Below the pieces are notes generated by a model. It was given only the letters and a program-made list of their open reading frames with translations, did not search any database and was not told where the DNA came from. A DNA stretch of 64,000 nt from Eledone cirrhosa (lineage: Eukaryota), in assembly GCA_964016885.1 (NCBI GenBank), contig OZ024742.1, positions 40,486,001 to 40,550,000 of the forward strand, in the 5' to 3' direction. Shown here piece by piece: positions 1-64,000 of the stretch (the first letter of the stretch is position 1; every line of letters starts with the position of its first letter). The position numbers and the translations under genes are program-made.

Positions 1-135
1 TAATATTTGTCTCTTAGCTTGCATCAATTAAATATAAGAGCTAGCTTTGTCTCCTACTGGAATCATTTCACTTCATTAAAACTAACTGCCACTACTACTA
101 CTACTGCTGCTGCTATTGTTGCTACTAATAACAAC

Positions 136-361
136 AATAATAATAATGATTTCTACTATAGGTAGAAGGACAGCAATTTGGGAGGAGGGGAAAGTCAATT
201 AAATCGACCCCAGTGCATTACTGGTACTTTACTTTATCAACCTCGCAAGGATGAAAGGCAAAGCTAACCGCAGCAGGATTTGAACTCAGAATGTAAAGGG
301 CCATAACTATGCTTCAAAGCATGGTGTCTGATGCTCTACCAATACTGCCAATCCACCACCC
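136..361 (-). mobile_element. tRNA-derived SINE of an abundant family (Nin-domain-like core), with (ATT)n tail
   Basis: The minus strand has a B-box-like GAGTTCAAATCC and a core GCCTTTCATCCTT..GGTTGATAAAGTAAAAGTACCAG. Homologous copies lie near 5879-6075, 10090-10300, 16277-16370, 38575-38960, 42310-42440, 48735-48840, 51650-51790 and 52560-52700. Confidence 0.75.
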
Positions 362-533
362 TAACAACAATAATACTATTACTATCAAGTCCAACAACAA
401 CCACCATCTCCACCAATAACTAAAACCTTCTTGTGACATGAGTTGTTTAACTCAAGTTCAGTTCCATTTGAGAGAACGTAAGATTAAAGGAAATCCAGTC
501 ATAATTACCCCATCGCTTTTATATTTAGAGGTT

Positions 534-1053
534 CCTCTCATATATTCAATTGTATTACACGGCTTGGAAAGATTCCCTTCCTTGAGCTATTTAATTGTAA
601 AAGACTATTTTGAGTTTCTAACTCAATCTATGATATTCTCGGCTCCATACGTAGAGCTAACTTTAGTCTCATAAAACCGGCTGCTACTTTTAGCGGCATG
701 AGTATGAGACGCGCTAGGTGCTGTAACATGTGCTTTTATATCAATACATGGTTCAGTCTTCTTAGATCTTTTGAAGTGAAAGGTACGAATTTCCTGGATA
801 CCCGCAGAAGAGCACAGGAATGGTGGCTTTCACTTAATAATCCTTGCGAAACAGATTTTAGATCTGTCCGGGTATCAAAGGCAGTTGCCCGATATAGGTT
901 TGTTATTTTTATTGATTTATTACTTTAAATCGAGACAGGCAAACCATATAGTTTTCAATTAGTATTTTTTCAACCTAGCTAACTTGGTCATTTGCAATTC
1001 GAACACATGTATACTTGTATCGGTGTTCATCCCTCTCATATATTCAATTGTAT
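534..1053 (+). mobile_element. 498-bp-period unit bounded by a 22-bp direct repeat and containing a hammerhead ribozyme (retrozyme-like or Penelope pLTR remnant)
   Basis: CCTCTCATATATTCAATTGTAT occurs at 534-555 and 1032-1053, and the second copy runs into (TA)n. An HHR fold lies at 793-881. Confidence 0.5.
793..881 (+). ncRNA. Type I hammerhead ribozyme with complete stems I-III and a U4A core variant
   Basis: Stem I GAUACCCG(797-804)/CGGGUAUC(869-876); core CAGAAGA(805-811); stem II GCAcAGGA(812-819)/UCCUUGC(841-847); GAA(848-850); stem III ACAGAU(851-856)/AUCUGU(862-867); cleavage triplet GUC ending at 868. Confidence 0.8.
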
Positions 1054-3507
1054 ATATATATATATAGAGAGAGAGAGAGATGAAGACCAAGTCAGATTCA
1101 TATTATTTAGGAGTTTTGTGTGTCTATTCCCAGGGTCATCACAAGAGTACAAGGCAATTAATTTTACACTGTAATGAAGAAACAAGTTGAGAGATTGACA
1201 TTTCAGACAGGAATCCTTTGTCAAGTAAAAGCAGAAATTTTACTCTGTTTTTATTTTTCAGCAAATGATAACTGTCTGAAAGACTAAACTCTCCAGGGTT
1301 TCTTTCTTGTAGTATAAAATTAATTATTTCGATATAATCAACTTTTCCCATCTCCCAAATGAGAAAAGTAAAAAAATCAAATCAAATAAAACAATATTAT
1401 TGATAATAATATTACACATAGTAATGCAGAAGTTTATCCAACAGTAACACTTTTCACAAGTCAATGAGGGAGCCTTTACATAATAATTTCAGCTGCTAGA
1501 AATAGGAATGAAATCTCCCCCAAATCATACCATAGCATATATAAATCGAAGAAAGACACATTGGGTATGTACCTGACAAAGAAAAAAGAAAAAGAAAACA
1601 GAATGGTCAAGACTAGAACATCTTTGACCATAGCTCTGTTTGGTCAGAGCTAAACAACAATATAGCAGCAATTACTGACAGACAATAATCCTTTGACCAT
1701 TTTATGGCCATATTTTTCATAAAATATTCTGTATTTTAATTTATGGATAATTTAATGTGATTTACTAAAATTATCAATTATTTCATTAAGATGGTATTTA
1801 CAACATAATAAATGGTCCTTATATACAACTAGACCACCTGAGGTCACTTAAAAATATTTTTTTAAATAATTAAAATATACACAGACATATATATAATGTA
1901 AAATGAAATTGGAAGGCCCATATATATATATATATATGTGTGTGTGTTCGTGTGTGTGTGTATATGTGTGTGTGTATACATATTCTCTCTCTATGTCTCT
2001 CTTTCAATCTACTCACTCACAACCACTGTCTCTTTCTCTATCTTTCTCTCTCTCTATTTATGAAGGTATCTGGAAAAACCCTGTATCTCAGGAACCCGTG
2101 CTCTGATTTACATGAAACTTGTTTTATTCCATTTGTATTCCCATTTCAGGGGCAACTTCCTTTCAAAGTATTTTCCCATTATGCACTGTTTTGGCTGTAT
2201 TAAATAACAGACAAGACACAATCACAGAGCTTTAGTAGTATATAGATTATTTTGTAAGGTTTTAATTTAAATAGAAACCTTTTAAAATGGGTTGATTTGT
2301 TTCATAGAACAAGAGGCAGTTTTAGGCAGTTTAGCCTCAACATCATCTTTCTTTCCATGTTTTCCATGCTGGCATGGGTTGGATGAGTCATCCTAGTCCA
2401 AGACAAAACAAGGTTAGCAAGACTGTTTTGCTCATATGTTCCATTTTTGGCATGATGTCTACAGCCTGACACCCTTCCTAATCCTAACCATCTTACATAG
2501 TGTATTAGGTGCATTTTATCATGGAACCAACACAACCACTTTACAGAATATATAAGGTATGTTTTATTGTGACACTAGCACTGCCACTTTGCAGTGTGTA
2601 CCGGAAGAATTTTATTGTGACACCAGCTCTTTCACTTTACAGAGTGTACTGAGTGCATCTTATAACACCAGCTCTATCACTTTACAGAGTATACTGGGTG
2701 CATTTTATTGTGGCACTGCTGCTATTACTTTACAGAGTGTACTGGATGTGTTTTAATTCATAGTTGATATTAAAAGGGTTAAATAAAGAATGTAAGCTTT
2801 AAACACTTCAATTCAATCTAAACTATAATATTTACAGTAATGATTGGTACAGACCTATTTTATTATTAGTCTGAGTGTCTGTGAGAGAAATTAGACTGAT
2901 TTATTGTGTGGGGGGAGTAGTTTGGCAGAGATGGGTTTGGTTCCAGTTCGTGTTTTTACTAACTTTAGTTATTTAAATGAAAACTGACAGATAAATGAAA
3001 TAAATAACAAATCAAAATGAAAATAATATTAAGATAAGGAATAGCTTTTGATTATAATGATAAAGGCAGTGTTGGTGGGGAAGATGGTGATAGTGATAAT
3101 GGTAGTGATGGTGGTGGTGGTGATAAAAGATGAGGATTATTTTGATGATGATGATGATGGTGGGGAAGATGATGGTGGTGATAATGGTAATGATTGTGAT
3201 GGTCATGATGGTGGTTGTGGTGGTGGTGGTGGTGATAACAATGGTGCTGATAAATGATGAGGATTATTATGATGATGATGGTGTTGATAATAATGATGAT
3301 TGATAATTTTTCAGACACATCAGAAATATATCAATAATCATATAGACAACTGTTCTTCACACACACACACACACTCACCTAATGTCACATAAATCATATG
3401 AAATGGACCTCCTGTTGGTTTCTGTGAGAGTACCTGCTGTTTAATCAACACACCAGCCTACTCGTGAAATTAATGTGTAAGTGGTTGAACCACAGACATG
3501 TGTACCC

Positions 3508-4651: not shown

Positions 4652-5345
4652 TGCATGCTCCGTTGGATGTGTAATAGTAATATACATGAACTAAGTGAGA
4701 AATTAGGAATAAGAGAGATCAGATGCTGTTTACTTGAGAGAAGACTACGTTGGTATGGTCACGTGATGTGCATGAAAGACGATAGCTGCATAAAAAAGTG
4801 CAGGGCAATCAAAATTGATGGTAGTTACGGAGTAGGTAGACCCAGAAAAACCTGGGACGATTTGATAAATTCCGACCTTATACACTTACATCTCTCTAAG
4901 ACAATGTCTCTGGACCGAGACCTTTGGCGCTACGCAGTAATACAGAAGACCCACCTTGCCTATGTACAAAGCAAAACCTACAGTCAGTAGGCACCTCTTA
5001 ACCAAATATACACCCCAATCCACTACCCCTTCCCTATCCTCCCACTCCCACCAACAGCACGAGAAAATGAGATCGAGTTCGTGTAGGTGTCACAACAAAA
5101 AACACACACAGTCCACACTGTAATATGGCCGTGTAGGTAACACGGTAAAAAGTTCCCAGTTCCACACTGTAAATGTGGTTGGTGTTAGGAAGGGCATCCA
5201 GCCGTAGAAAACCTGCCAGATAGTCCTATATGAGCGAGACACGGTCACCCAACCAGCCTTGCCTCAAGTGGGACAACTCCCGTCTAACCCATGCTAGCGT
5301 GGAAAACGGACGTTAAACGAAGATGATGATGATGATGAGGATGAT
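4652..5345 (+). mobile_element. RTE-clade LINE 3' fragment with 3'UTR and (GAT)n tail
   Basis: Translates to CMLRWMC...RRLRWYGHVM...GRPRKTW. Closely similar to the C-terminus and 3'UTR of 26083-28270. Confidence 0.9.
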
Positions 5346-5878: not shown

Positions 5879-6075
5879 ATAATAATTGTTTCTACTTTTG
5901 GCACAAGGCCAGCAATTACCCCAGTGCACTACTGGTACTTTATTTTATCGACCTCGTAAGGATGAAAGACAAAGTTTACCTCGGCGGGATTTGAACTCAG
6001 AATATAAAGGGCCATAACTCTATGCTGCAAAGCATGGTGTCTGATTCTCTACCGATACTACCAATCCACCGCCCT
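5879..6075 (-). mobile_element. tRNA-derived SINE (same family as 136-361)
   Basis: Shares ACTGGTACTTTATTTTATCGACC..AAGGATGAAAG..AAAG..ACCTCGGCGGGATTTGAACTCAG on the plus strand. Confidence 0.75.
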
Positions 6076-10306: not shown

Positions 10307-13300
10307 CACTACACCAGATTGTACCACACCACACACAACTCCACCACACCACACCACACTACACACAACTCCACCACACCACATATAACTCCACCACACC
10401 ACACAAAACTCCACCACACCACACACAACTCCACCACACCACACACAACTCCACCACACCGCACACAACTCCACCACACCACACACAACTCCAGCACACC
10501 ACATACAACTCCACCACACCACACACAACTCCACCACACCACACACAACTCCACCACGCCACATACAACTCCACCACACCGCACACAACTCCACCACACT
10601 ACACACAACTCCACCACACCACACACAACTCCACCACACCACACACAACTCCACCACGCCACATACAACTCCACCACACCGCACACAACTCCACCACACC
10701 ACATACAACTCCACCACACCACACACAACTCCACCACACCACATACAACTCCACCACACCACACACAACTCCACCACACCACATACAACTCCACCACACC
10801 ACAGATAACTCCTCCACACCACATACAACTCCACCACACCACAGATAATTCCACCACACCACATACAACTCCACCACACCACACACAACTCCACCACACC
10901 ACACACAACTCCAGCACACCACACACAACTCCAGCACACCACACACAACTCCACCACACCACACACAACTCCACCACACCACACACAACTCCACCACACC
11001 ACACACAACTCCACCACACCACACCCAATTCCACCACACCACACACAACTCCACCACACCACACACAACTCCACCACACCACACACAACTCCACCACATG
11101 ACACACAACTCCACCACATGACACACAACTCCACCACACCACACACAACTCCACCACACCACACACAACTCCACCACACCACACACAACTCCACCACATG
11201 ACACACAACTCCACCACACCACACACAACTCCACCACACCACACACAACTCCACCACACCGCACCCAACTCCACCACACCACACACAACACCACCACACC
11301 ACATACAACTCCACCACACCACACACAACTCCACCACACCACACACAACTCCACCACACCACACACAACTCCACCACATGATACACAACTCCACCACACC
11401 ACACACAACTCCACCACACCACATACAACTCCACCACACCACACCCAACTCCACCACACCGCACACAACTCCACCACACCACACACAACTCCACCACATG
11501 ACACACAACTCCACCACACACAACTCCACCACACCACACACAACTCCACCACATGACACACAACTCCACCACACCACACACAACTCCACCACACGACACA
11601 CAACTCCACCACATGACACACAACTCCACCACACCACACACAACTCCACCACACCACATACAACTCCACCACACCACACACAACTCCACCACACCACACA
11701 CAACTCCACCACACCACACACAACTCCACCACACCACACACAACTCCACCACACCACATACAACTCCACCACACCACATACAACTCCACCACACCACACA
11801 CAACTCCACCACACCACACACAATTCCACCACACAACACACGACTCCACCACACCACACACAACTCCACCACACCACACACAACTCCACCACATGACACA
11901 CAACTCCACCACATGACACACAACTCCACCACACCACACACAACTCCACCACACCACACCACACACAACTCCACCACACCACACACAACTCCACCACATG
12001 ACACACAACTCCACCACACCACACACAACTCCACCACACCACACACAACTCCACCACACCGCACCCAACTCCACCACACCACACACAACTCCACCACACC
12101 ACACACAACTCCACCACACCACACACAACTCCACCACATGACACACAACTCCACCACACCACACACAACTCCACCACACCACATACAACTCCACCACACC
12201 ACACACAACTCCACCACATGACAGACAACTCCACCACACCACACCCAACTCCACCACACCGCACACAACTCCACCACACCACACACAACTCCACCACATG
12301 ACACACAACTCCACCACACCACACACAACTCCACCACACCACATACAACTCCACCACACCACACACAACTCCACCACACCACACACAACTCCACCACACC
12401 ACACACAACTTAACCACACCAGACATAACTCCACCACACCACACACAACTCCACCACACCACATACAACTCCACCACACCACACACAACTCCACCACACC
12501 ACACACAACTCCACCACACCACACACAACTCCACCACACCACACACAACTCCAGCACACCACACACAACTCCACCACACCACACACAATTCCACCACACA
12601 ACACACGACTCCACCACACCACACACAACTCCACCACACCACACACAACTCCACCACACACAACTCCACCACACCACACACAACTCCACCACACCACACA
12701 CAACTCCACCACACCACACACACAACTCCACCACACCACACACAACTCCACCACATGACACACAACTCCACCACACCACACACAACTCCACCACATGACA
12801 CACAACTCCACCACACCGCACACAACTCCACCACACCACACACAACTCCACCACACCACACACAACTCCACCACACCACACACAACTCTACCGCACCACA
12901 TACAACTCCACCACACCGCACACAACTCCACCACACCACACACAATTCCACCACACCGCACACAACTCCTCCACACCACATACAACTCCACCACACCACA
13001 CACAACTCCACCACACTGCACACAACTCCACCACACCACACGCAACTCCACCACACCACATACAACTCCACCACACCACAAACAACTCCACCACACCACA
13101 CACAACTCCACCACACCACACACAACTCCACCACACCACAAACAACTCCACCACACCACACACAACTCCACCACACCACACACAACTCCACCACACCACA
13201 CACAACTCCACCACACCACACACAACTCCAGCACACCACACACAACTCCACCACTCACACACAATTCCACCACACAACACACGGCTCCACCACACCACAC

Positions 13301-15577
13301 ACAACTCCACCACACCACACACAACTCCACCACACACAACTCCACCACACCACACACAACTCCACCACACCACACACAACTCCACCACACCACACACACA
13401 ACTCCACCACACCACACACAACTCCACCACATGACACACAACTCCACCACACCACACACAACTCCACCACACCACACACAACTCCACCACACCACACACA
13501 ACTCTACCGCACCACATACAACTCCACCACACCGCACACAACTCCACCACACCACACACAATTCCACCACACCGCACACAACTCCTCCACACCACATACA
13601 ACTCCACCACACCACAGATAACTCCACCACACCACACACAACTCCACCACACCGCACACAACTCCACCACACCACACACAACTCCACCACACCGCACACA
13701 ACTCCACCACACCACACACACAACTCCACCACACTGCACACAACTCCACCACACCACACACAATTCCACCACACAACACACGACTCCACCACACCACACA
13801 CAACTCCACCACACCACACACAACTCCACCACACCACACACAACTCCACCACACCACACACAACTCCACCACACCACACACAACTCTACCGCACCACATA
13901 CAACTCCACCACACCGCACACAACTCCACCACACCACACACAATTCCACCACACCGCACACAACTCCTCCACACCACATACAACTCCACCACACCACACA
14001 CAACTCCACCACACCACACACAACTCCACCACACCACACGCAACTCCACCACACCACAAACAACTCCACCACACCACAAACAACTCCACCACACCACACA
14101 CAACTCCACCACACCACACACAACTCCACCACACCACATACAACTCCACCACACCACACACAACTCCACCACACCACACACAACTCCACCACACCACATA
14201 CAACTCCACCACATGACACACAACTCCACCACACCACACACAACTCCACCACACACAACTCCACCACACCGCACACAACTCCTCCACACCACATACAACT
14301 CCACCACACCACAGATAACTCCACCACACGACACACAATTCCACCACACCACATACAACTCCACCACACCACATACAACTCCACCACATGACACACAACT
14401 CCACCACACCACACACAACTCCACCACACCGCACACAACTCCTCCACACCACATACAACTCCACCACACCACAGATAACTCCACCACACCACACACAACT
14501 CCACCACACCACATACAACTCCACCACATGACACACAACTCCACCACACCACACACAACTCCACCACACCACACACAACTCCACCACACCACACACAACT
14601 CCTCCACACCACATACAACTCCACCACACCACAGATAACTCCACCACACCACACACAACTCCACCACACCGCACACAACTCCTCCACACCACACACAACT
14701 CCACCACACCACACACAACTCCACCACACCACACCCAATTCCACCACACTACACACAACTCCACCACACCACACACAACTCCTCCACACCACAGATAACT
14801 CCACCACACCACACACAACTCCACCACACCACACCCAATTCCACCACACTACACACAACTCCACCACACCGCACACAACTCCTCCACACCACACACAACT
14901 CCACCACACCACACACAACTCCTCCACACCACACCCAATTCCACCACACTACACACAACTCCACCACACCACACACAACTCCACCACACCATACACAACT
15001 CCACCACACCACACACAACTCCACCACACCACACACAACTCCACCACACAACACACAACTCCACCACACCACACCACACACAACTCCACCACACCACACC
15101 CAATTCCACCACACAACACACAACTCCACCACACCACACACAACTCCACCACACCACACACAACTCCACCACACCACACACAACTCCTTCACACCACACA
15201 CAACTCCACCACACCACACCACAAACAACTCCACCACACCACACACAACTCCACCACACCACATACTACTCCACCACACCACAAACAACTCCACCACGCT
15301 ACACCACAAACAACTCCACCACACCACACACAACTCCACCACACCACACACAACTCCACCACACCACACACAACTCCTCCACACCACACACAACTCCTCC
15401 ACACCACACACAACTCCACCACACCACACCACAAACAACTCCACCACATCACACACAACTCCACCACACCACACACAACTCCACCATACCACATACAACT
15501 CCACCACACCACACCCAACTCCACCACACCACACCCAATTCCACCATACCACACCACACACAACTCCACCACACCAC
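10307..15577. repeat. ~5.3-kb minisatellite with a 20-bp unit, (CCACCACACCACACACAACT)n
   Basis: Tandem 20-mers with recurrent variants (acatac, acatga, gcacac, caattc) and occasional short indels. Confidence 0.97.
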
Positions 15578-16250: not shown

Positions 16251-17404
16251 TATATATCATAATTATTTAACATCCACTTTGCCTTTCATCCTTACGGGGT
16301 CGATAAAATAAAGTACCAGTAATGCATTGGGTAATTGCTGGCCTTGTGCCAAAAGTAGAAACAATTATTTAACATCCACTTTCACTGTTGGCAAGGGCTG
16401 GATGATGTATATAGGCAATTTTCCAGCATGGCTGTAGTCTAATGACTCTAATCAGTAAAAGGATAATAATTGTTTCTACATATGGCACAAGGCCAGAAAT
16501 TTGAAGGGAAAAGGAAAGTCAACTAAATCGACTCCAGTGTGTTACTGAGGCAAAGCTAACCTTGGCAGGATTTGAACTCAGCTTGTCCCACAGGTACAAG
16601 CTGAAGCTGAAGCAAGTAGACAATATTCCCCCACGCCCCTCCTGCTGCAAAGTTGTCATGTAGGTCACACGACAAAAAGCACCCAGTTCACACTGTAAAG
16701 GGGTCATGTAGGCGCCACGGTAAAAAAAGCACCCAGTATCCACTGTAAATGAGGTTGGTGTTAGGAAGAGCATCCAGCTGCAGAAACTGAGCCAAAATCA
16801 GTTCTGTATGAGCAAGATATGGTTCCCTGACTTGGCCTTGCCTACAACAGGACAGCTCATCTAACCCATGCTAGCGTGGAGACATCGATATAAAATGGTG
16901 TTGGTGATGAACGTAAAGGGCCGTAACTAAATACTGCAAAGCATTTTATCCGACACTCTACCGATTATGCCAATCCACTGCCTTCAATAAAAGGATAATA
17001 ACAATGCTTGAGCTGAGGCATATATCTAATAGGCAACATCTTCCTCTACCATCTCCCCTCCCATACACCTCCCTTGATATAACCATCCCTCCCCTATTAC
17101 CTACATCCTCAATTTTCCCAAGATTCTTCCCTCACCCTCCCTAATTCCCATCCCACACCATGAATGGTCCCTCTGGAGCTATGACTAAAGTGCTGAGCCC
17201 TTACTGTATAGTGGTCATGTATGTGTCAAGACAAAAGAACCCAGCCCACATCATAATGTGGTTGGCATTAGGAAGGGCATCCAGCTGTAGAAATCAATCC
17301 AGAATCAGTTCTGTGTGAGCGAAACACAGTCCCCTCACCTGATCTCTCCCAAAGGGTCAGCCCATCCTACCCATTCTAGCATGGAAAATGGACGTTAAAC
17401 AATA

Positions 17405-18486: not shown

Positions 18487-18555
18487 ATTAAATGTTTTAA
18501 ACACTCTTTGATTGTCATTTACATTGTATTTCGGCTATATATATATGTTCTAACT

Positions 18556-19383
18556 AAAAATGAAAGGCAGGCTGTATGATGCCTGCATACGAACAGCAAT
18601 GTTGCATGGCAGTGAGACCTGGGCATTGTGTGCAGAGAATATACGCAGACTGGAGAGGAACGAAGCTTGCATGCTCCGCTGGATGTGTAATAGTAATATA
18701 CGTGAACGGCAAAGCATAAACGAACTAAGGGAGAAATTAGGAATAAGTGGGATCAGATGTTGTTTACTCGAGAGAAAACTACGTTGGTATGGTCACGTGA
18801 TGCGCATGAAAGACGACAGCTGTATAAAAAAGTGCAGGGCGATAAAAATAGACGGTAGCCACGGAGTAGGCAGACCCAGAAAAACCTGGGACGACCTGAT
18901 AAACTCCGACCTCACACACTTACACCTCTCCAAGACAATGTCACTGGACCGAGATCTTTGGCGGCACTCAGTAATACAGAAGACACCGCCTTGCCTAAGT
19001 ACAGAGCGAAACCTACAGTCAGTAGGCACCTCTAACAAAATACACCCCATCCCACTACCCCCACCCCATCCACACCACCCCTTCCAATGTAAAGTTATGT
19101 TGGTACCACAACATCCAGTCCGAAACAAATGAGGTCGTGTAGGTGTCATGACAAAAAAACACACAGTCCACGCTGTAATGTGGCCGTGTAGGTAAGACAG
19201 TAAAAACCTCCCAGTCCACACTGTAAACGTGGTTGGTGTTAGGAAGGGCATCCAGCCATAGAAAACCCTCCAGACAGTCCTATACGAGCAAGACAACCAA
19301 TCTTGCCTCAAGTGGGAAAATTCCCGTCCAAACCCATGCTAGCGTGGAACATGGACGTTAAACGATGATGATGATGATGATGA
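18556..19383 (+). mobile_element. RTE-clade LINE 3' fragment with 3'UTR and (GAT)n tail
   Basis: ORF 18560-19132 (MKGRLYDACIRTAMLHGSETW...RLERNE...WYGHVMRM) is nearly identical to the C-terminus of the 572-aa RTE ORF. Confidence 0.92.
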
Positions 19384-19400
19384 TATATATATATATATAT

Positions 19401-19670
19401 ATATATATGAATGTATATATAGTGTATTTGGTAATACACTGTATGCTTAATTAAAAGCACTTTGAAGACCTGACACTATTGTTTTAAAGTAGTGACTATG
19501 TCACTTACTTCTTTTTTCAACAAACAAAGGGAGATAAGCTGACACATCTCTGTTTCATACTATTGGTATTCCTCAGAGCTTAGCACTCCCTTTGTTTGTT
19601 GGTCTTCAAAATGCTTTTAATTAAGCATACAGTGTATTGCCAAATACACTATATATACATTCATATATAT
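19401..19670. repeat. Long fold-back inverted repeat enclosing a hammerhead ribozyme
   Basis: 19401-19470 is the reverse complement of 19601-19670 with 2 mismatches. The inner arms 19518-19533/19586-19601 are perfect. Confidence 0.9.
19518..19601 (-). ncRNA. Canonical type I hammerhead ribozyme
   Basis: Minus strand: UAAGCU-CUGAGGA(19576-19570)-AUAC caaua GUAU-GAA-ACA gagaug UGU-C^AGCUUA. Stem I is extended by a perfect 16-bp helix after an internal loop. All core nucleotides are canonical; cleavage is predicted between 19541 and 19540. Confidence 0.88.
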
Positions 19671-20833
19671 ATCGCTATTTCAGAGCACCAATTCGAATTT
19701 TCAATTTTTGCTGGACTGGCAACCGCTCTGTATAATCAGTTCCTGATTATTACTGGAATTCTATAAGAATCCAACACACATAATTTTCAACAAAATAGGT
19801 AATCATTGAGGAGATCTTAGAATGTGTGATGAAAGAACTTTGACATACAAATGAATAATGAACAATAAAGATTTTCCGAATGATTTGAAAGTTACAGGCA
19901 GTGTCTTTCATTAGAAATATGATAACAAAAGGGTTAAGGCACTCAAGGGCCAAGTAGATTAGATGGGATTTGAACTTAGACAACAAAGAGCTGAAACAAA
20001 CGCCAATACGCCAATGCGCCAATGCACCAATGCCCTGCCAATGCTTCAACGACTCAGTCTACTAATTCAGACTGGCACTTTATTTATCAACCCCAAACGG
20101 CTGAGAGGAAAAATTAACCTCAGTCAGGTTTGATCTCATAATGTAAGAAGCCAGAATAAATGTGTGTATTTAGATGCATTCTTATCTAATAATGTTATCT
20201 GTACATGTCTATTCATACATACACTATCAGGCACATATACATATATCTACATATATATATACATACACCCCATAAACATATATACACACACCAAAACACA
20301 CAAGTACACGCACACACACATACCCAGAAACATTCACACACACATATATACACACACACACAGATAAACATATATATATATATATACATACATTCCAATT
20401 GGAGGTTAAAAAACAAAATGAACATGCCATATGAATTATCAGTGATAGGAGAGTGATGTAGTAGTGAGTAGGTTACATGTCAAATCAATAGAATACAACT
20501 CATGTGAATATCACAACTAAATAACTTACTATCACTAACATCATCCCCATTACCATCATCATCCTCATCGCAACTATATGTCCAACCGTCAATATCATTA
20601 TCATTACCATCATCGTCTTCATCACATCTATTGGTCCAACTATTTGCACCATCATCTTTATCACCCTCACAACCATCTCTATCATTGCCAACAACAAAAC
20701 CTACCCTCACCACTATCAAAGTTTGCCAGCATCTACTCTTTACACCACAATAGTGACCCCCTTCAGCAACAAGCTAAAGAGGAAAATTTCTACATATTTA
20801 TCTCTCCTGTTAGAAAGAGTAGCCAAATTTCCC

Positions 20834-26082: not shown

Positions 26083-28270
26083 AATCATCATCATCATCAT
26101 CATCAACGTTTAACGTCTGTGTTCCACGCTTGCATGGGTTTGGACGGGGGTAGTCCCACTTGAGGCAAGAGTGATTTTCTTGCTCTCATAGGACTGTCTG
26201 GCAGGTTTTCTACAGTTGGATGCCCTTCCTAACACCAACCACATTTACAGTGTGGGTCTGGGAGGTTTTTACCGTGTTGCCTACACGGCCACATTACAGC
26301 GTGGACTGTGTGTTTTTTGTCGTGACACCTACACGATCTCATTTGTTTCGGCCTGGATGGCGCGGCACCAACATAACTTTACATAGAACGGGGTGGTGTG
26401 GATGGGGTGGGGGTGGTGGTGGTGGGACGGGGTGTATTTTGTTAGAGATGCCTACTGGCAAGGCGGGTCTTCTCTATTACTGAGTACCGCCAAAGGTCTC
26501 GGTCCAGTGACATTGTCTTGGTGAGGTGTAAGTGTGTGAGGTCGGAGTTTATCAGCTCGTCCCAGGTTTTTCTGGGTCTGCCTATTCCGTGGCTACCGTC
26601 TATCTTTATTGCCCTGCACTTTGTTATACAGCTATCATCCTTCATGCGCATCACGTGACCATACCAACGTAGCCTTCTCTCTAGTAAACAACATCTGATC
26701 CCTCTTATTTCTAATTTTTTCCTTAGTTCGTTTATGCTTTGTCGTTCACTTATATTACTATTACACATCCAGCGGAGCATGCAAGCTTCGTTTCTCTCTA
26801 GTCTGCGTATATCCTCTGCACACAATGCCCAGGTCTCACTGCCATGCAACATTGCTGTTCGTATGCAGGCATCGTACAGCCTGCCTTTCATTTTTAGGGA
26901 GAACCCTTTAGCGGCTAATAGTGGTATAAGCTCTCTGAACTTTTTCCACCCAGTTCTGACTCTAGCTACTGTACTTTCAGAGCACCCTCCCCCACTGCTG
27001 ATTTTGTCACCCAGGTAACGGAAGCTGTCCACTATTTCTATAGAACCCTCTGCGCAGTTGAAAGAGCTAGTATTTTGTGGGCACTTGCTGCTACTTATAT
27101 CCCCAGAACACCGGCCACATGTAAAATCTATGTTCTTAGTTAGCTTACCTGTGATCCCACTACATCTTTTATGCACCCAAACTTTGCATTTGGGACACAA
27201 AATGGAATTTCTACCTACGCCTTTCCTACACTCTGCGCATGGCCACTTCCCGGAGGGGACCGCCGCCTTATTTTCTTTCTTACAAACTAGAACTTTAGTC
27301 TTAGCTAGTTTAATTTTAAGGCCTTTTGATTCTAGGCCGTGCTTCCATGTTTGGAATTTCTTCTCTAGCTCGGCCATTGATTCAGCTATGAGCGTTAGAT
27401 CATCTGCGTATAGGAGTTCCCATGGGCAGCCGGTCTTGAACTCCACTGTTATAGCCTGGAGGGCAATAATAAATAGTAGGGGGCTAAGAACAGAGCCCTG
27501 ATGAACACCAACTTTTACACTAAACTCTTCACTATATTCGTTGTTAATTCTAACCTTGCTAACTGTTTCTTTATACATGGCTTGTATAGCTCTCACAAGC
27601 CATTCATCAACACCTAGTTTTCTAAGAGCCCACCAGATAATGGAACGGGGGACTCTGTCGAAGGCCTTCTCCAAGTCGACGAAAGCTAAGTATAGGGGTT
27701 TACTTTTAGCTAGGTACTTCTCCTGTAGTTGTCGTACAATGAAAAGAGCGTCTGTGGTACTTTTTCCTGACACAAACCCGAACTGCATTTCATCTAGATC
27801 AATTCGCTCTCTGATTAGTTGCGCTATAACTTTTTCCGTGACCTTCATGACCTGGTCGATTAATTTAATGCCTCTATAGTTACTCCTATCTAGGGCATCT
27901 CCTTTACCCTTATAACAGTTAACGATAATGCTGCTGCGCCAGTCCTTCGGAACAACCCCATTCTGTATGACTTGGTTGACTATCCGGGTGACCATGGTGT
28001 GTCCCACCATACCAGATGCCTTCAGCATCTCGGCAACTATTTCCGAAGGCCCAGCCGCCTTGCCTGTCTTCATATCTTTGATTGCCTTACTTATTATACT
28101 ACCCTCGACATTGCTGGTCCCTCTATTGGGTCGATGTGGGGGAGACTGTCTTTCTCCCATTTATTCTCCTCATTTAGTAGCCTTTCATAGTGACACTTCC
28201 AAGCTACCTTCTTATCGGCGTCGGTGATGGCAAGTATGCCGTCATCATTAAGTACACACTTCTCCCCGAC
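26083..28270 (-). mobile_element. 5'-truncated RTE-clade LINE
   Basis: RT ORF, 3'UTR and (GAT)n tail. The 5' end abuts (TA)n and the endonuclease domain is absent. Confidence 0.95.
26442..28160 (-). pseudogene. RTE reverse transcriptase ORF fragment (572 aa) with an embedded PHD-type zinc finger
   Basis: Motifs KAAGPS, YKGKGD..NYRGIKL, QFGF, FVDLEKAFD, GVHQGSVLSPLLF, LYADD, FRYLG, RLRWYGHV. C4HC3 pattern CAEC..CPKC..HKRC..CGRC. The N-terminus is frameshifted or truncated. Confidence 0.93.
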
Positions 28271-39747: not shown

Positions 39748-41414
39748 TATTTTACATATATATATACATGAACATATAGATGCATGCACATTTGTATGTA
39801 TATATGCAAGTATGCAAATGTGTGTTGGTAATTATATGTATTAGTGTGCGTATATAGGTATTCATTTACATAGAGGGGGAGAGAGATAGGGTAGATAGTA
39901 TATATGTTTGTGTGTGTCAGTTTTCTGCAAAAGAAAAAAAAATCAATCACATCGCAATACCATTAACTGAAAATTCCTGGCGCTAGTATAGTTAATAAAG
40001 CCATTCCAGAGCTAAAATAATTGAAATGTCATTCCTCTCTACTGCTTGGACTTTCTAGATCCTTCCTGATAGTTAGAATAAAAACCAAAGATCAGACATA
40101 TAAAATATTAATCACCCCCAGCCATCCAGCACTCTAAATATTACTTGATGCTAAACTGAAGTCGACGATATATCTACATATATGAACGCCATTTTTTTTC
40201 ATTCTTTTAACCCCTTTGATACCAAACTGCCCAAAACTTCTGGTTCTACAAATACATAACTGTATATTTTAAAGTGTTTATTTTTTTTATCTAAAACAAC
40301 TCCAAGGTGGATGAGTGCATATATTTTTGGTTTGGATAAGATGTTGAGCAATGCATTTAATTCTTATAGCAGTTAAGTTGTGAAGGTTACCTGTAATAAA
40401 CTATTATCCTATCTATGAGAAGATTTATCTCCCATGTCCTTAACACTTTTTTTATACCAAACGACCTTAAAACAACTCTGATTCTATAATACATGACCGT
40501 TTATTTCAAAGTGTTTATATTTACACAAAAACCTCCCATCATGATTTTATATTGGAATTTTTCTTAAGTTATACTCCAAGCATGAACTTAGTAATGAGAA
40601 AGTTTGTTATATTACTAAATCCCTCCAAATTCTTGATCATTCTCAAAATAATTTGAAAACCATAGGCATTGTCTTTCATTAGAAGTATGGTAGCAAAAGG
40701 ATTACGTTCTAAAAATAATTAGGAGTGTGGCTTTTAGTCTTTCTATAATGGTGTAATTATTCTGTAACTATCCTAGAATATTTTCTATGTGATGTATCGT
40801 TATATTTTCTTTCCATATATTTATTTGCCATAGACAATTTTTAAATAGTTACAAAGAATATTGTGGCATGAATGACTTGATTAAATGATTTAAAATGTAC
40901 CTTGGGAAGCTAATGTGACTACTTACCATGTATCATCATCATCATCGTTTTTACATCAACCTTTCCATGCTGGCATGGATCAGACAGCATGTTTTGAGAT
41001 GATGTTCTATAGCTGGATGTCCTTTCTGATTTTAACCCTTCTAGTTGTCTCTTACTACATGTTGAGATACAGCCTAGCTATTCTAAGAATCCAGGACTCA
41101 CATGACACACTGTAAAGTAATTGGTGATAGAAAAAGGACATTCAGCTGTAGAAAATTATTCAAACTAAGAGTAAAAATCACTCTTCATTTGTGTCAAAGA
41201 ATTGATAATCTCCATAATACTGGAACCATGATAAAATGCATGGCGAACTCTGTAAGTGTGGGAACATTTGTAAGTACTGACTTTGTCTATGGTGACCCAT
41301 TCAACTCTTGTTAGAAGGGAAAACGAATGCTAAAAAATGATGTACACACATACAAAAGTGAGAGTTATGCATGTTTATTATTACATTAATATATTGTATA
41401 TGCTTTCATATATG

Positions 41415-48508: not shown

Positions 48509-49221
48509 TTAATGGAAGAATACCATAGTTTCAACAAAATATATTAACTCCTCTACATGCTTTGACGAATTTCTTTCTCCCATTACTAAATTGAAATGTA
48601 CACATGCATCTACAAACATACACATGTATGTACGTATGAATGTATGCTTGTGTGTATGTATATGTGTGTACGTGTACATCTATGTGTGTGCATGCATATG
48701 TGGGATAGTGTGTGTATGTATGCACACATACATAATTGTTTCTACTTTTGGCACAAGGCCAGCAATTACTCAGTGCATTATTGGTATTCATTTTATCGAC
48801 CCCGTAAGGATGAAAGGCAAAGTTAACCTCAGCGGGATTACATAATGGCAGCTAACTTGTGCTAGAGTATAGCCATTATAGCCATTGCTTGAATTTTCAA
48901 TAATGCTTCTGCAAGTGTGTAGCATAGATGGGACTTATTTACTGTAGTATAAGTTTGGTAAATATATCCAAGGTAACAGCACTTAGTCCATAGGATGAGT
49001 TAAGTATAATTACAACAGTGATATATATAGGTACTTAAGTTTCCAACTCATTCAGTCTGTTATATATACTCTTTATGACGTCTTTAGCAATTGACGTCAT
49101 TCTCATGAATAGTAAAATAACCGTAAAAAAAAACCGCTTATAAACGATTTAGAAAAATTTAAATCAAAATTTAATCCCAAAAGAGAGGAAATTGGAACAT
49201 TATCCTCTGAAAGCTCCTTAA

Positions 49222-56769: not shown

Positions 56770-56844
56770 ATCATCATCATCATTTTACGCCCGCTTTTGC
56801 CTGCTTGCAAGGGTGGGACATATATATATATATATGTATATATA

Positions 56845-57406
56845 CAGGGGTTGGACAAAATAATGGAAACACCTAGCATCATAGCATCATAATTTTTAAA
56901 TATCTATAAAATCGTCAAAAGCTTGTTTATTTTTATGTTATTTTATTTATTATTAGTGTTGCTTAATATGTTTTGTTAAAATTGCTGTTTCTTTTCAGAT
57001 ATCATCAGAAAAAGGTAATTAAAATTCATTAAAATGACAGATCTATCGGACTTTCAAAGAGGTCAAATTGTTGGTGGTCGTATGGCAGGCGCTAGCGTAA
57101 CGAAAACAGCCGAAATGTTTGGTGTATCAAGAAGTACTGTCTCGAAAGTAATGGCAGCCTTTGAGAAAGAGGGAAAAACCTCCTCGTCGAAACAAAACTC
57201 CGGAAGAAAACCAAAACATTCAGATAGGTACCGTCGGACTCATACGCGAATTGTTAGAAAGGATCACAAAAGTACAGCTCCCAAAATTACTGCTGAGCTT
57301 AACGACCACTTCGAGAACAATAAAAATAAACAAGCTTTTGACGGTTTTATAGATATTTCAAAATTATGGTGCTATAATGCTAGGTGTTTCCATTATTTTG
57401 TCCAAC
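56845..57406 (+). mobile_element. Internally deleted Tc1-like transposon with ~90-bp TIRs
   Basis: Left end TA-CAGGGGTTGGACAAAATAATGGAAACACCTAGCAT..; inverted copy at 57319-57406 lacks the terminal CCCTG. Confidence 0.9.
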
Positions 57407-57414
57407 AAAAATAA
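57034..57414 (+). pseudogene. Tc1 transposase N-terminal paired-like HTH fragment (DDE domain deleted)
   Basis: MTDLSDFQRGQIVG..AGASVTKTA..GVSRSTVSKV..NSGRKPK..TAPKITAELN, then reads into the right TIR. Confidence 0.88.
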
Positions 57415-57491
57415 TTTTGAGATAGAGCGTCCGTGATGTTTGCTCTGATCAGAGCAAACATCACGGACGCTCTATCTCAAAATTATTTTTG
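57406..57491. repeat. Perfect 86-bp spacerless palindrome
   Basis: Arms 57406-57448 and 57449-57491 are exact reverse complements, centred on TGA|TCA. Confidence 0.95.
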
Positions 57492-57671: not shown

Positions 57672-57713
<42 letters not shown>

Positions 57714-57745
57714 ATTAAATAAATGGAAACTATATTTATAAAACC

Positions 57746-57822
57746 ATATTTATTTCATTATATATATTTCAGGGATATCATATTAACAATATGCTATGCC
57801 TTCCTCAGACAAAATACAATAT
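57746..57822 (-). ncRNA. Type I hammerhead ribozyme in the inverted pLTR
   Basis: Reverse-complement copy of 60447-60523, with core TCCTCAG at 57802-57808. Confidence 0.8.
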
Positions 57823-60446
57823 AAACAGTTTTATAAATAAATAGATTCGACATACCGTAACAACATCGACTTGTATTTGAAAAAGTTGAATTGGCAGTGA
57901 AAAAATTGTACACAGAGAGAAAGAAAGAGAGAAAAAAGAAAGAAAGACAGAAAACGAAGAAAAAGAAGAAATGCATGGAACAAAATAGAGAGATGGAAAG
58001 ATGGATAAAGAGAAGAACTTCATGTAAAGAAACAGAGAGAGATATATATATATATAGAGAGAGAGGAAATAGAGATAGATACATATATATAGAAAACTAG
58101 GTAGTGGGACGTCTGTTGAGTAAACGTATCAATGATACATTTATTTATTTATTTATTTAGCTCTAGTATTAATGTAAGGGAGATATATGGAGAGAAACCA
58201 GCTGTTATATAGAGAGAGAAAAAAATATAGAGAGAGAAAAAATTTAAAAATAACCAGACATAGGCGAGGCGTAAAAACCCTATGTTTTAATGTAGAGGTA
58301 TTAGTATTTATAAAAACCAGCCACTATATTGTAAATATCAGTATTCCTGAATGAGACATGTATCCATAATGTGTGAAAATTAATGATCTTATGTTTAGTT
58401 TTTAAAAAAAATTCATATGTTTATGTGATAACTACAAACATCTATGTGAATTTACATGATCAACTCTGCAAACCCTAAGCTCACGGAAAACATTCTCATT
58501 GTGGTATAAAAATTTAAGTATACATATATGTGTATATATATATACACACAAATATATATAGAGTCAATATTACTATTCCTGTCTTTACTCTACAAGATTA
58601 TCTATCAAGCAGAAATAGAGAGCAGATTTCAATATACTAATAAAAATATATATCAGAAACAAAACTAAAAAATAACAATAATAATAATAAGTAATAATAA
58701 AATAGAAAACTAAAAAATATTACGAAAGAATATTACATATTAAAAATATTACATATTAAAAATATTAAAAATAAAAATATTAGAAAATACTACGATAATA
58801 AAAATAAAAATAAACCACAAAGATCAACCCTTCAAAATTAATTGACAATATATTGCCAAGTTCATTATAAGCATCAGAGTTGAAAAACAGATATAGTCGA
58901 AAAACGGAATTTAGTCTCAAGAGGGATTCCTTTTAATTCATCCTCTGAGACATGTGACCTCTGCGCAGAGGAGATATTCTTTATACTAAAATCTAAAAAT
59001 TCCCTTAATCTACGGACAAATTTATTCAGTTGCTGCAAACATAGATTAAACTCAACGTTTAAATATAAATTTAAATTTAAAATGTAGTATATTTAGTTTG
59101 ATTTATAATTATATGGGAAACTAGCCGATAAATCTTTGATTCCTTCTTTTTATTCTTTTTATTTTTATTTTTATTTTTATTTAAACATTCTTCATGAAAA
59201 ATTAAGCTACCCTAAATGTTGATGCTCCAAATATTTCGAATAAACGTTACACTAGATAAACTTCTATATTAAATATAAGAACACATGTAGACCAAATGGG
59301 CATCCTAAACTTTTTGAAATGATCTTTGCTAGATGCGATTTGATAGATAATTTTTGGCTGTATCTGATTTTCGACTCTGATGCTTATAATGAACTTGGCA
59401 ATATATTGTCAATTAATTTTGAAGGGTTGATCTTTGTGGTTTATTTTTATTTTTATTATTGTAGTATTTTCTAATATTTTTATTTTTAATATTTTTAATA
59501 TGTAATATTTTTAATATGTAATATTCTTTCGTAATATTTTTTAGTTTTCTATTTTATTATTACTTATTATTATTATTGTTATTTTTTAGTTTTGTTTCTG
59601 ATATATATTTTTATTAGTATATTGAAATCTGCTCTCTATTTCTGCTTGATAGATAATCTTGTAGAGTAAAGACAGGAATAGTAATATTGACTCTATATAT
59701 ATTTGTGTGTATATATATACACATATATGTATACTTAAATTTTTATACCACAATGAGAATGTTTTCCGTGAACTTAGGGTTTGCAGAGTTGATCATGTAA
59801 ATTCACATAGATGTTTGTAGTTATCACATAAACATATGAATTTTTTTAAAAAACTAAACATAAGATCATTAATTTTCACACATTATGGATACATGTCTCA
59901 TTCAGGAATACTGATATTTACAATATAGTGGCTGGTTTTTATAAATACTAATACCTCTACATTAAAACATAGTGTTTTTACGCCTCGCCTATGTCTGGTT
60001 ATTTTTTAATTTTTTCTCTCTATATATTTTTTTCTCTCTCTATATAACAGCTGGTTTCTCTCCATATATCTCCCTTACATTAATACTAGAGCTAAATAAA
60101 TAAATAAATAAATGTATCATTGATACGTTTACTCAACAGACGTCCCACTACCTAGTTTTCTATATATATGTATCTATCTCTATTTCCTCTCTCTCTCTCT
60201 CTATATATATATCTCTGTTTCTTTACATGAAGTTCTTCTCTTTATCTATCTTTCCATCTCTCTATTTTGTTCCATGCATTTCTTCTTTTTCTTCTTTTTC
60301 TTCTTTTTCTTCGTTTTCTGTCTTTCTTTCTTTTTTTCTCTCTTTCTTTCTCTCTGTGTACAATTTTTTCACTGCCAATTCAACTTTTTCAAATACAAGT
60401 CGATGTTGTTACGGTATGTCGAATCTATTTATCTATAAAACTGTTT

Positions 60447-60523
60447 ATATTGTATTTTGTCTGAGGAAGGCATAGCATATTGTTAATATGATATCCCTGA
60501 AATATATATAATGAAATAAATAT
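60447..60523 (+). ncRNA. Type I hammerhead ribozyme near the 3' end of the pLTR, just upstream of the ORF
   Basis: Stem I AUAUUgUAUUUUGU/AUGAAAUAAAUAU; CUGAGGA(60461-60467); stem II AGGcAUAgCAUAUU guu AAUAUGaUAUcCCU; GAAA(60499-60502); palindromic AUAUAUAU stem III; cleavage predicted after UA at 60510. Confidence 0.82.
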
Positions 60524-60696
60524 GGTTTTATAAATATAGTTTCCATTTATTTAATATTGTAAATATACTCCAAATACTTGTCGAGTGCTTTTATATCAGT
60601 TATAAATATTTACTAGTTGTAACCCAACAATTTAAATATAACTTTCCATGTATCTTGCTCCAATACTGTTGAGCGCTTTATATTATAACTGGAAAA

Positions 60697-62916: not shown

Positions 62917-63946
62917 TATATTTAGTTTGATTTATAATTATATGGGAAACTAGCCGATAAATCTTTGATTCCTTCTTTTTATTCTTTTTATTTTTATTTT
63001 TATTTTTATTTTTATTTTTATTTTTATTTTTATTTAAACATTCTTCATGAAAAATTAAGCTACCCTAAATGTTGATGCTCCAAATATTTCGAATAAACGT
63101 TACACTAGATAAACTTCTATATTAAATATAAGAATACATGTAGACCAAATGGGCATCCTAAACTTTTTGAAATGATCTTTGCTAGATGCGATTTGATAGA
63201 TAATTTTTGGCTTTATCTGTTTTTCGACTCTGATGCTTATAATGAACTTGGCAATATATTGTCAATTAATTTTGAAGGGTTGATCTTTGTGGTTTATTTT
63301 TATTTTTATTATTGTAGTATTTTCTAATATTTTTATTTTTAATATTTTTAATATGTAATATTTTTAATATGTAATATTCTTTCGTAATATTTTTTAGTTT
63401 TCTATTTTATTATTACTTATTATTATTATTGTTATTTTTTAGTTTTGTTTCTGATATATATTTTTATTAGTATATTGAAATCTGCTCTCTATTTCTGCTT
63501 GATAGATAATCTTGTAGAGTAAAGACAGGAATAGTAATATTGACTCTATATATATTTGTGTGTGTATATATACACATATATGTATACTTAAATTTTTATA
63601 CCACAATGAGAATGTTTTCCGTGAACTTAGGGTTTGCAGAGTTGATCATGTAAATTCACATAGATGTTTGTAGTTATCACATAAACATATGAATTTTTTT
63701 TAAAAAACTAAACATAAGATCATTAATTTTCACACATTATGGATACATGTCTCATTCAGGAATACTGATATTTACAATATAGTGGCTGGTTTTTATAAAT
63801 ACTAATACCTCTACATTAAAACATAGGGTTTTTACGCCTCGCCTATGTCTGGTTGTTTTTAAATTTTTTCTCTCTCTATATTTTTTTCTCTATATATATA
63901 ACAGCTGGTTTCTCTCCATATATCTCCCTTACATTAATACTAGAGC

Positions 63947-63977
<31 letters not shown>

Positions 63978-64000
63978 ATGTATCATTGATACGTTTACTC

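What the first reader, a model, noticed from the sequence alone, without database searches (positions are those of the whole stretch)
534..1053. Complete three-stem hammerhead inside a 498-bp direct-repeat-bounded unit (retrozyme-like)
Seen: a type I HHR at 793-881 with an 8-bp stem I, a 7-bp stem II, a full 6-bp stem III and a GUC cleavage triplet; only position 4 deviates (CAGAAGA). It sits in non-coding sequence bounded by a 22-bp direct repeat, i.e. slightly more than one monomer, ending in (TA)n. Known: metazoan non-LTR retrozymes are non-coding tandem units with type I HHRs that yield circular RNAs, and PLE pLTRs also carry HHRs, usually with minimal stem III. Inference: an insertion derived from a circular or tandem ribozyme-bearing RNA, possibly an undescribed family.
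Basis: partly seen in the sequence, partly recalled or inferred. Interest (0 to 1): 0.75.

Follow-up and report, generated by a model that had tools for sequence, protein, structure and literature searches.

The report
Penelope-type repeat with variant hammerhead ribozyme
This is one copy of a multi-copy, 498-base repeat with no recognisable gene that carries a hammerhead ribozyme motif with one atypical core base and is likely pasted into TA microsatellites by Penelope-like retrotransposon enzymes, a kind of parasite ('retrozyme') already known from other animals; self-cutting and circular RNA remain untested.

Summary
A type I hammerhead lies at 797-876 (0 of 478 shuffles gave a comparable motif) inside a 498-bp unit with a 22-bp end repeat. 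Reads from four public runs show a multi-copy family: the 1031-to-534 junction recurs with up to 66 bases on each side, so the repeat is terminal redundancy, not a target duplication. Other copies often end near 636 in (TA)n, and inverted junctions occur; both are Penelope-like-element (PLE) marks. No PLE coding sequence was found in the unit or the first 3 kb. The GAA-ACAG…CTGT-C stem III and (TA)n targeting match Hydra-clade PLEs, and a full-ORF Hydra-type element of another family sits in the same window. Best reading: a solo monomer of a non-autonomous, PLE-mobilised non-LTR retrozyme family. Two twists: A4 appears to be the majority state among close copies rather than damage to this copy (inferred from a truncated variant table), and a 9-bp helix joins loop II to upstream sequence (blocker or pseudoknot). 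Cleavage, circles and arrays with two ribozymes are unshown. New member of a known kind; interest 0.38.

The parts
534..1031 (+). 498-bp monomer without recognisable coding sequence (permuted relative to the family's common 3' end near 636)
   Evidence: Repeat spacing 498; reads and contigs laid only on about 534-1050 and joint 1031->534 in 4 of 4 runs; no match to a PLE protein HMM
534..555 (+). first copy of the 22-bp terminal redundancy
   Evidence: Exact repeat; part of the element, since other copies run through the junction
1032..1053 (+). second copy of the 22-bp redundancy; 3' end of this insertion, ending in TAT shared with the microsatellite
797..876 (+). type I hammerhead motif: stem I 797-804/869-876, stem II 812-819/841-847, stem III 851-856/862-867, predicted cut after 868
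805..811 (+). core CAGAAGA with A in place of U4 (806)
   Evidence: Sequence; 806 absent from the 40 best-supported variant rows although covered in X1, X5, X8
774..786 (+). upstream strand of a long-range helix with loop II (774-782 pairs 827-835, 9 Watson-Crick pairs; 784-786 with 823-825)
   Evidence: (40 of 20000 shuffled loops reach 9 pairs)
823..835 (+). loop II strand of that helix; the common variants 822 and 826 fall at its two G.G mismatches
610..640 (+). region in which many other copies of the family end and pass into (TA)n
   Evidence: Loose ends at 610, 631, 636 in X1, X6, X8 (table 7)
1051..1080 (.). (TA)n(GA)n microsatellite, the presumed insertion target
   Evidence: Sequence; (TA)n preference listed for 26 of 27 Hydra-clade families

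Best explanation
This is a single, slightly-more-than-unit-length copy of a multi-copy 498-bp repeat with a type I hammerhead motif and no recognisable gene, likely a non-autonomous (retrozyme-type) parasite of Hydra-clade Penelope-like retrotransposons, whose enzymes would have pasted it into a TA microsatellite from a head-to-tail RNA. Shown: hammerhead anatomy, many related copies, recurring head-to-tail junction, several 3' end points that pass into microsatellite, no PLE ORF. Inferred: a tandem source locus is transcribed through more than one unit; a PLE GIY-YIG endonuclease nicks (TA)n; the PLE reverse transcriptase primes on a TA-rich spot of the RNA (usually near 636, here at 1053) and copies one full unit plus 22 nt across the ribozyme site, giving the end repeat. 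The A4 hammerhead is predicted to be slow and can be sequestered by the 774-786/823-835 helix, so the template of this copy was more likely an uncleaved multimer (about 55%) than a circle (about 45%).
For: Family: 2307 contig pieces of run X1 and 2920 raw reads of run X8 lie on the unit, and 16 and 6 pieces in X5 and X6 (4 studies, 3 organism labels); depth is zero in the bins 442-503, 1062-1123 and 1186-1280 in all four runs. Junction 1031->534 in 4 of 4 runs (X8: 93 reads from 11 start places, up to 66 letters on the shorter side; X6 record 17 covers 959-1031 then 534-593). Overlapping contigs 534-710, 603-768, 631-774, 657-824, 772-955, 857-1041 tile the unit without an intervening ORF. Loose ends into (TA)n behind 610/631/636 (X8 631: 464 reads) and into (GT)n behind 1018 (X5, 1 contig). 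10 of the 15 joint rows shown are opposite-strand joints, the inverted truncated copy typical of PLE insertions (PMC8557442). An HMM of 14 PLE proteins finds a control PLE end (E 3e-14) but nothing in the unit or the first 3 kb (best E 1.1). Hydra clade: canonical hammerheads, (TA)n targeting. A Hydra-type element with an unbroken 747-aa ORF (RWR, DKT, CxCX5C, CxxC, CxH) and inverted plus partial-tandem structure ends at (TA)n in this window. 1 of the 40 best-supported variant rows falls in the 59 core and stem positions (4.7 expected, P 0.04) and it keeps pairing (G-C to G-U at 842). Slow ribozyme: CUGA single mutants had low activity in a type III hammerhead (PMC9901934).
Against: No listed piece spans the whole unit, and none shows two hammerheads in tandem. 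A more abundant, more diverged subfamily is seen only over about 906-1031 and 534-636; its hammerhead and whatever lies beyond were not visible and could belong to an autonomous PLE. No DNA similarity to the PLE in this window (local score 37 against 35+-4 for shuffles; 3'-end likeness only tied third among 121 other TA-run flanks), so the actual helper is unidentified. Opposite-strand joints each rest on one X1 contig, none is seen in X8 reads, and they could be library chimeras; reads were laid at 80% likeness, where joints are less reliable. No clear target-site duplication and no empty site seen. The variant test is weak and biased by the likeness filter. In the full monomer the predicted MFE breaks stems I and II (pair probability about 0.01), unlike most metazoan retrozyme circles (PMC7229834), though the hammerhead fold is only 2.6 kcal/mol worse.
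Confidence: 0.7

Rival explanations
1. Fully active retrozyme: the A4 hammerhead cleaves well because the loop II/upstream helix acts as an activating pseudoknot (or is a switch that protects the circle); 498-nt monomers are circularised, and this insertion came from reverse transcription once around a circle. This shares the element class with the best explanation and differs in the ribozyme step.
For: One unit plus 22 nt with two identical repeat copies; monomer folds better than 100 of 100 shuffles, z -4.2; variants avoid core and stems; 9-bp complement unlikely by chance; about 40% of hammerheads use a stem I/II pseudoknot and U4C still supports viroid infectivity (PMC3088659); read depth rises just downstream of the predicted cut site (bins from 876 on).
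Against: CUGA mutants are poor in vitro; 8 of 9 predicted Xenopus retrozymes showed no cleavage; the same helix also fits a fold that destroys stem II; the depth step is equally explained by a diverged subfamily dropping below the 80% filter (loose end before 906).
Confidence: 0.2
2. Ordinary debris of an autonomous PLE: a 5'-truncated partial tandem or internal-deletion copy of a coding Hydra-clade element whose ORF was not visible; the 498-bp unit has no life cycle of its own.
For: Hydra-clade PLEs carry similar hammerheads near their 3' ends and target (TA)n; most laid sequence is the 906-1031 plus 534-636 segment ending in (TA)n, as 5'-truncated PLE ends would; one X6 contig leaves the unit's sequence just after 636; two other hammerhead-bearing PLE structures occur in the window.
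Against: The segment 637-876 is continuous with both neighbours in many X1 contigs and X8 reads, with shared high-share variants along it, so the ORF-less unit was itself amplified; no ORF remnant.
Confidence: 0.17
3. A satellite spread by DNA-level mechanisms (unequal crossover, extrachromosomal DNA circles); the hammerhead is an inherited relic.
For: Head-to-tail junction; atypical core; satellite-like expansion of PLE ends is discussed in 10.64898/2026.07.22.740005.
Against: End points pass into TA or GT microsatellite at spots of microhomology, and inverted joints occur; this copy is a lone unit abutting (TA)n.
Confidence: 0.07
4. The hammerhead resemblance is chance.
For: One core mismatch; no Rfam hit.
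Against: 0 of 478 shuffles; stem III start and G10.1-C11.1 pair as in Hydra-clade hammerheads.
Confidence: 0.01

Closest known systems
Metazoan non-LTR retrozymes (Cervera and de la Pena 2020, PMC7229834; Li, Clavereau and Pollet 2026, bioRxiv 10.64898/2026.07.22.740005)
   Same: Non-coding unit of a few hundred bases, GC below 50%, one type I hammerhead per unit, multi-copy, head-to-tail junction; solo monomers are a described class; proposed PLE origin and mobilisation; a mollusc example (mussel, 350-390 bp) exists.
   Different: 498 bp is above the 150-450 bp of the first paper (within 51-972 bp of the second); core has A4; stem III is 6 bp rather than 1-2 bp; predicted monomer fold blocks the ribozyme, which the first paper reports only for some mussel circles; arrays, cleavage and circles not shown here.
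Hydra-clade Penelope-like elements (Craig et al. 2021, PMC8557442), including Hydra-1_Obim of Octopus bimaculoides
   Same: Sense-strand type I hammerhead with formed stem III (ACAG/CTGT in 4 of 26 listed rows), 7-bp stem II in several, (TA)n insertion (26 of 27 families), terminal extension, inverted truncated copies.
   Different: No RT or GIY-YIG ORF; all 26 listed Hydra hammerhead rows have CUGA; Hydra-1_Obim's hammerhead and 3' end are a different sequence (read by eye); five short motifs of the unit gave no family match in the supplement text.
Natural hammerhead core variants (Perreault et al. 2011, PMC3088659)
   Same: Rare single-position core changes occur in nature; U4C lowers activity in vitro yet supports viroid infectivity; pseudoknots between loop II and a stem I tail can raise activity.
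   Different: U4A is not named in the passages and sections read (Figure 5 itself is not held); here the variant seems to be carried by most close copies of a genomic family.
Dolichopoda pDo500 satellite with hammerhead (PMC2837043, passages)
   Same: About 500-bp repeat with one type I hammerhead, stems more conserved than loops.
   Different: Classical tandem satellite with canonical core; no PLE-type insertion marks described in the passages read.

Membership tests
Metazoan non-LTR retrozyme | Type I hammerhead architecture in the repeat unit | tested here: met
Metazoan non-LTR retrozyme | Canonical or minimal hammerhead core (CUGANGA...GAAA...UH) | tested here: inconclusive
   10 of 11 fixed core letters match; A4 in this copy and apparently in most close copies; the core of the more diverged subfamily was not visible
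Metazoan non-LTR retrozyme | Non-coding unit of a few hundred bases, GC below 50%, no LTR pair | tested here: met
   498 bp, GC 37%, longest ATG ORF 76 aa; no Pfam or PLE-HMM match
Metazoan non-LTR retrozyme | Many genomic copies | tested here: met
   2307 contig pieces (X1), 2920 reads (X8), variant columns in up to 93 contigs
Metazoan non-LTR retrozyme | Tandem arrays with a hammerhead in at least two consecutive units (Li et al.'s 'active' class) | tested here: inconclusive
   This locus is a solo monomer (1.04 units); head-to-tail junction recurs in 4 of 4 runs but no piece spans two hammerheads
Metazoan non-LTR retrozyme | Self-cleavage | not testable with these tools
   Needs an in vitro assay
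Metazoan non-LTR retrozyme | Expression as linear and circular monomer RNA | not testable with these tools
   No RNA data could be laid
Autonomous Penelope-like element (Hydra clade) | ORF with RT and C-terminal GIY-YIG endonuclease | tested here: not met
   tblastn and HMM of 14 PLE proteins find nothing in the unit or in 1-3000
PLE-mobilised insertion (works like) | Insertion into (TA)n with variable 3' end or tail | tested here: met
   This copy ends in (TA)n; others end near 610-636 in (TA)n
PLE-mobilised insertion (works like) | Partial tandem and inverted 5'-truncated copies | tested here: inconclusive
   Junction well supported; 10 opposite-strand joints each in one contig of one run
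PLE-mobilised insertion (works like) | Sequence homology to the pLTR of an autonomous partner | tested here: inconclusive
   None to the PLE in the window or, by motif search and eye, to Hydra-1_Obim; no genome was available to look for the true partner
Plant LTR retrozyme | Type III hammerheads in two LTRs, 4-bp TSD | tested here: not met
   One type I motif; no LTR pair

The most novel reading that the evidence does not exclude
A high-copy retrozyme family of a probable cephalopod that runs on a natural CAGA-core hammerhead: U4A is the family norm and is rescued, or switched on and off, by a 9-13-bp helix between loop II and the sequence upstream of stem I, so that tandem transcripts cleave but the 498-nt circle is protected, and Hydra-clade PLE enzymes prime on it at several TA-rich sites.
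Probability: 0.18. Interest if true: 0.65.

Novelty: new member of a known kind. Interest (0 to 1): 0.38.

Why it matters
As it stands, it extends hammerhead-bearing non-autonomous PLE parasites to a probable cephalopod and points to the Hydra clade as helper, which the vertebrate-centred 2026 preprint did not examine. The recurring junction and several priming sites offer a population of insertions with which to test whether PLE enzymes copy circles or uncleaved multimers, an open question in PLE biology. If A4 is really the family norm, the family is either a natural active core variant that standard CUGA descriptors miss (Rfam missed it here), or evidence that such families can amplify with a crippled ribozyme; either result bears on what PLE hammerheads are for.

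Tried and rejected
No genome is held for the window, so copy number, arrays and empty sites could not be read from an assembly. Rfam: no hammerhead or other ribozyme hit. No second copy of the unit in the window. Exact-pattern scans: 0 in metagenome contigs, 0 in viral contigs, 1 in prokaryote genomes, a 22-nt chance match with no extension. Earlier findings by sequence, place and one word search: nothing. Target-site duplication: TATATTTAGAG left against TATATATAGAG right is low-complexity and was not accepted. The YTAW/YSTAW likeness between one frame of the unit and the PLE endonuclease end was rejected. Likeness of the unit's 3' end to the window PLE's 3' end was rejected as unexceptional. 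No tRNA in the window; bacterial promoter scan at chance level and not apt for an animal. Summed contig depth was not used as copy number, as the tool warns. A relaxed hammerhead hit at 40568 (-) was set aside as probable chance (56 of 478 shuffles have a hit at that level). Literature: no cephalopod retrozyme paper in searches; no U4A or CAGA natural variant in searches; the library is open-access only. Lunse et al. (PMC5785218) is not held, the supplement of PMC7229834 is too large to read, and the preprint's supplements are closed; any of these may already list similar invertebrate elements or core variants.

Full report
1. Observation. The motif is as described. Stem I is 797-804/869-876, the core CAGAAGA is 805-811 with A4 at 806, stem II is 812-819/841-847 with one bulged C, GAA is 848-850, stem III is 851-856/862-867, and the GUC triplet ends at 868. 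Folded alone the region adopts the hammerhead. With one core mismatch allowed it is the only strong hit in the window, and 0 of 478 dinucleotide shuffles gave one. Rfam models do not detect it. The 22-bp repeat is exact, 498 bp apart, and runs into (TA)n(GA)n. The unit is 37% GC with no credible gene.

2. Setting. The window is repeat-rich animal DNA: microsatellites, a LINE reverse transcriptase frame, a transposase HTH fragment. It is probably an octopod. The basis is weak: 1 of 13 homologues of the window's PLE protein carries a name, from Argonauta hians at 38% identity, and the SINE-like repeat at 207-362 resembles octopus repeats (recalled, from no call). No genome is held.

3. The unit is a family. 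I laid 4 of the 10 listed runs on 380-1280 at 80% likeness. X1 gave 2307 contig pieces, X8 2920 raw reads, X5 16 and X6 6 pieces; these are four studies and three organism labels. Nearly all depth lies on about 534-1050; the flank bins 442-503, 1062-1123 and 1186-1280 are empty in all four runs, so this insertion site itself was not seen. The joint 1031->534 occurs in 4 of 4 runs (X8: 93 reads, 11 start places, up to 66 letters on the shorter side), so the 22-bp repeat is terminal redundancy of a head-to-tail unit and not a target duplication. Overlapping X1 contigs tile 534-1041 without an intervening ORF, but no listed piece spans the whole unit or two hammerheads. Many copies end at 610-636 and pass into (TA)n (X8, loose end at 631: 464 reads; also X1, X6); one X5 contig passes into (GT)n behind 1018. 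Each end point lies at a spot that resembles the microsatellite. Ten of the 15 joint rows shown (3 hidden) join opposite strands, each in one X1 contig. Depth is highest over about 906-1031 and 534-627; loose ends before 906 show a diverged subfamily (about 75% alike over the 30 letters shown, by eye) whose hammerhead I could not see.

4. Position 4. The variant table shows 40 rows and hides 131. Recomputing shares, the lowest listed rows cluster at 0.43-0.44 per run (0.47-0.50 per strand), which indicates ranking by share. Seven sites are nearly fixed against this copy (565, 687, 719, 745, 842, 950, 956); 806 is not listed although X1, X5 and X8 cover it. I infer that fewer than about half of the close copies have U4, so A4 is the majority state of this subfamily, in two organism labels. 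This is an inference from absence in a truncated table; U4 may be present as a minority (X5 has one unlisted A>T site) and in the diverged subfamily. One of the 40 rows falls in the 59 core and stem positions (4.7 expected, P 0.04); it turns G-C into G-U. Listed deletions in the motif are at 843 (stem II) and 856-862 (end of stem III and its loop). This is weak support for constraint.

5. A second helix. Loop II (827-835) is complementary over 9 Watson-Crick pairs to 774-782, extendable to 784-786/823-825; 40 of 20000 shuffled loops reach 9 pairs with either 40-nt flank. The two common loop II variants, 822 and 826, fall at the two G.G mismatches. In the whole monomer, linear or circular, the predicted MFE uses this helix together with 791-796/815-820 and breaks stems I and II; the hammerhead-constrained fold is only 2.6 kcal/mol worse. 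It could block the ribozyme, as in plant retrozymes and viroids and unlike most metazoan retrozymes (PMC7229834), or serve as the loop II pseudoknot used by about 40% of hammerheads (PMC3088659). Folding software cannot decide this.

6. Link to PLEs. The unit and the first 3 kb have no PLE coding similarity. Hydra-clade PLEs have canonical hammerheads and 26 of 27 families insert in (TA)n; all 26 listed hammerhead rows have CUGA and a 3-4-bp stem III, 4 of them ACAG/CTGT as here (PMC8557442). So a formed stem III does not separate this motif from PLE hammerheads. The window holds a Hydra-type element at about 57702-64000 with an unbroken 747-aa frame and the clade's motifs (RWR for RWK, DKT, CxCX5C, CxxC, CxH), an inverted truncated head, a partial tandem, an end at (TA)n and a hammerhead-like motif. 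It shares no DNA similarity with the unit, so it shows that such enzymes exist in this genome, not that it is the helper.

7. Mechanism. Shown: anatomy, multi-copy family, junction, microsatellite-linked variable ends, no ORF. Inferred: read-through transcription of a tandem source; nicking of (TA)n and priming by PLE enzymes at a TA-rich site of the RNA, usually near 636, here at 1053; reverse transcription of one unit plus 22 nt across the intact ribozyme site. That needs a circle or an uncleaved multimer. Because CUGA mutants are poor in vitro (PMC9901934), PLE hammerheads are often slow (PMC4209133) and 8 of 9 Xenopus retrozymes did not cleave, I favour the uncleaved multimer slightly. Against this, U4C remains viable in a viroid, and depth rises just after the predicted cut site, which could mean cleaved RNA is the usual template but could also be a likeness-filter effect.

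8. Comparison and membership. It works like a metazoan non-LTR retrozyme, and a 2026 preprint argues that these are non-autonomous PLE derivatives with solo monomers as a described class. Membership tests met: type I architecture, non-coding small unit, many copies. Inconclusive: canonical core, arrays with two hammerheads. Untestable: cleavage, circles. It is not an autonomous PLE (no ORF) and not a plant LTR retrozyme. Earlier notes of this scan describe similar Penelope-marked non-coding units in other genomes; they are unchecked and only suggest that the pattern is common.

9. What I read. 10.64898/2026.07.22.740005: parts 1-3 of 5 (abstract to discussion). PMC8557442: passages, section 11, supplement searches and parts 2, 52, 53 of 59. 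PMC7229834: parts 2-4 of 6. PMC4209133: parts 1-2 of 4. PMC3088659: passages and sections 6-8. PMC9901934, PMC6765202, PMC2837043: passages. Supplements of PMC7229834 and of the preprint, and Lunse et al., were not available and may bear on novelty. Searches found no cephalopod retrozyme; searches found no natural U4A hammerhead.

10. Verdict. A real element, correctly spotted, of a known kind: probably an undescribed family of PLE-mobilised retrozyme-type repeats. The apparent family-wide A4 and the loop II helix are the points worth an experiment. Interest 0.38; most novel reading probability 0.18, interest 0.65.

Noticed in passing
window 57702-64000: Hydra-type Penelope-like element: unbroken 747-aa RT/GIY-YIG frame 60673-62916 (+), inverted truncated head 57702-58903, partial tandem 58906-60562, end at (TA)n 57672-57709, hammerhead-like motif with CUGAGGA core at 60453-60518 and its inverted copy at 57751-57816; copies 96-97% alike. 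Pfam does not recognise the protein; homologues at 31-39% identity.
   Followed up: partly
window 19535-19582 (-): Second type I hammerhead with canonical CUGAGGA core and GUC triplet, between 72-bp inverted repeats (19399-19470 / 19601-19672) next to (TA)n: likely an inverted PLE remnant of a third family.
   Followed up: partly
window 876-906 and 610-640 (read data): The most abundant related sequence runs from just after the predicted cleavage site to the common 3' end near 636; it may mark reverse transcripts of ribozyme-cut RNA, or only a diverged subfamily.
   Followed up: partly
window 26442-28160 (-): LINE-type reverse transcriptase frame (572 aa, PF00078 E 2e-31) with a PHD-like finger inside; related fragments at 18547-19384 and 4652-5342.
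   Followed up: no
window 10352-15577: 20-bp satellite, about 260 copies, 90% matches, with extreme strand skew.
   Followed up: no
window 56840-57410: Element with an HTH (transposase-like) frame at 57019-57414 and 87-bp inverted repeats (56850-56936 / 57320-57406), next to an 86-bp perfect palindrome at 57406-57491.
   Followed up: no
window 207-362: SINE-like repeat also found at 5918-6075, with related pieces at 16276-16371 and 48727-48839.
   Followed up: no
window 40568 (-): Relaxed hammerhead-descriptor hit in AT-rich sequence; probably chance.
   Followed up: partly
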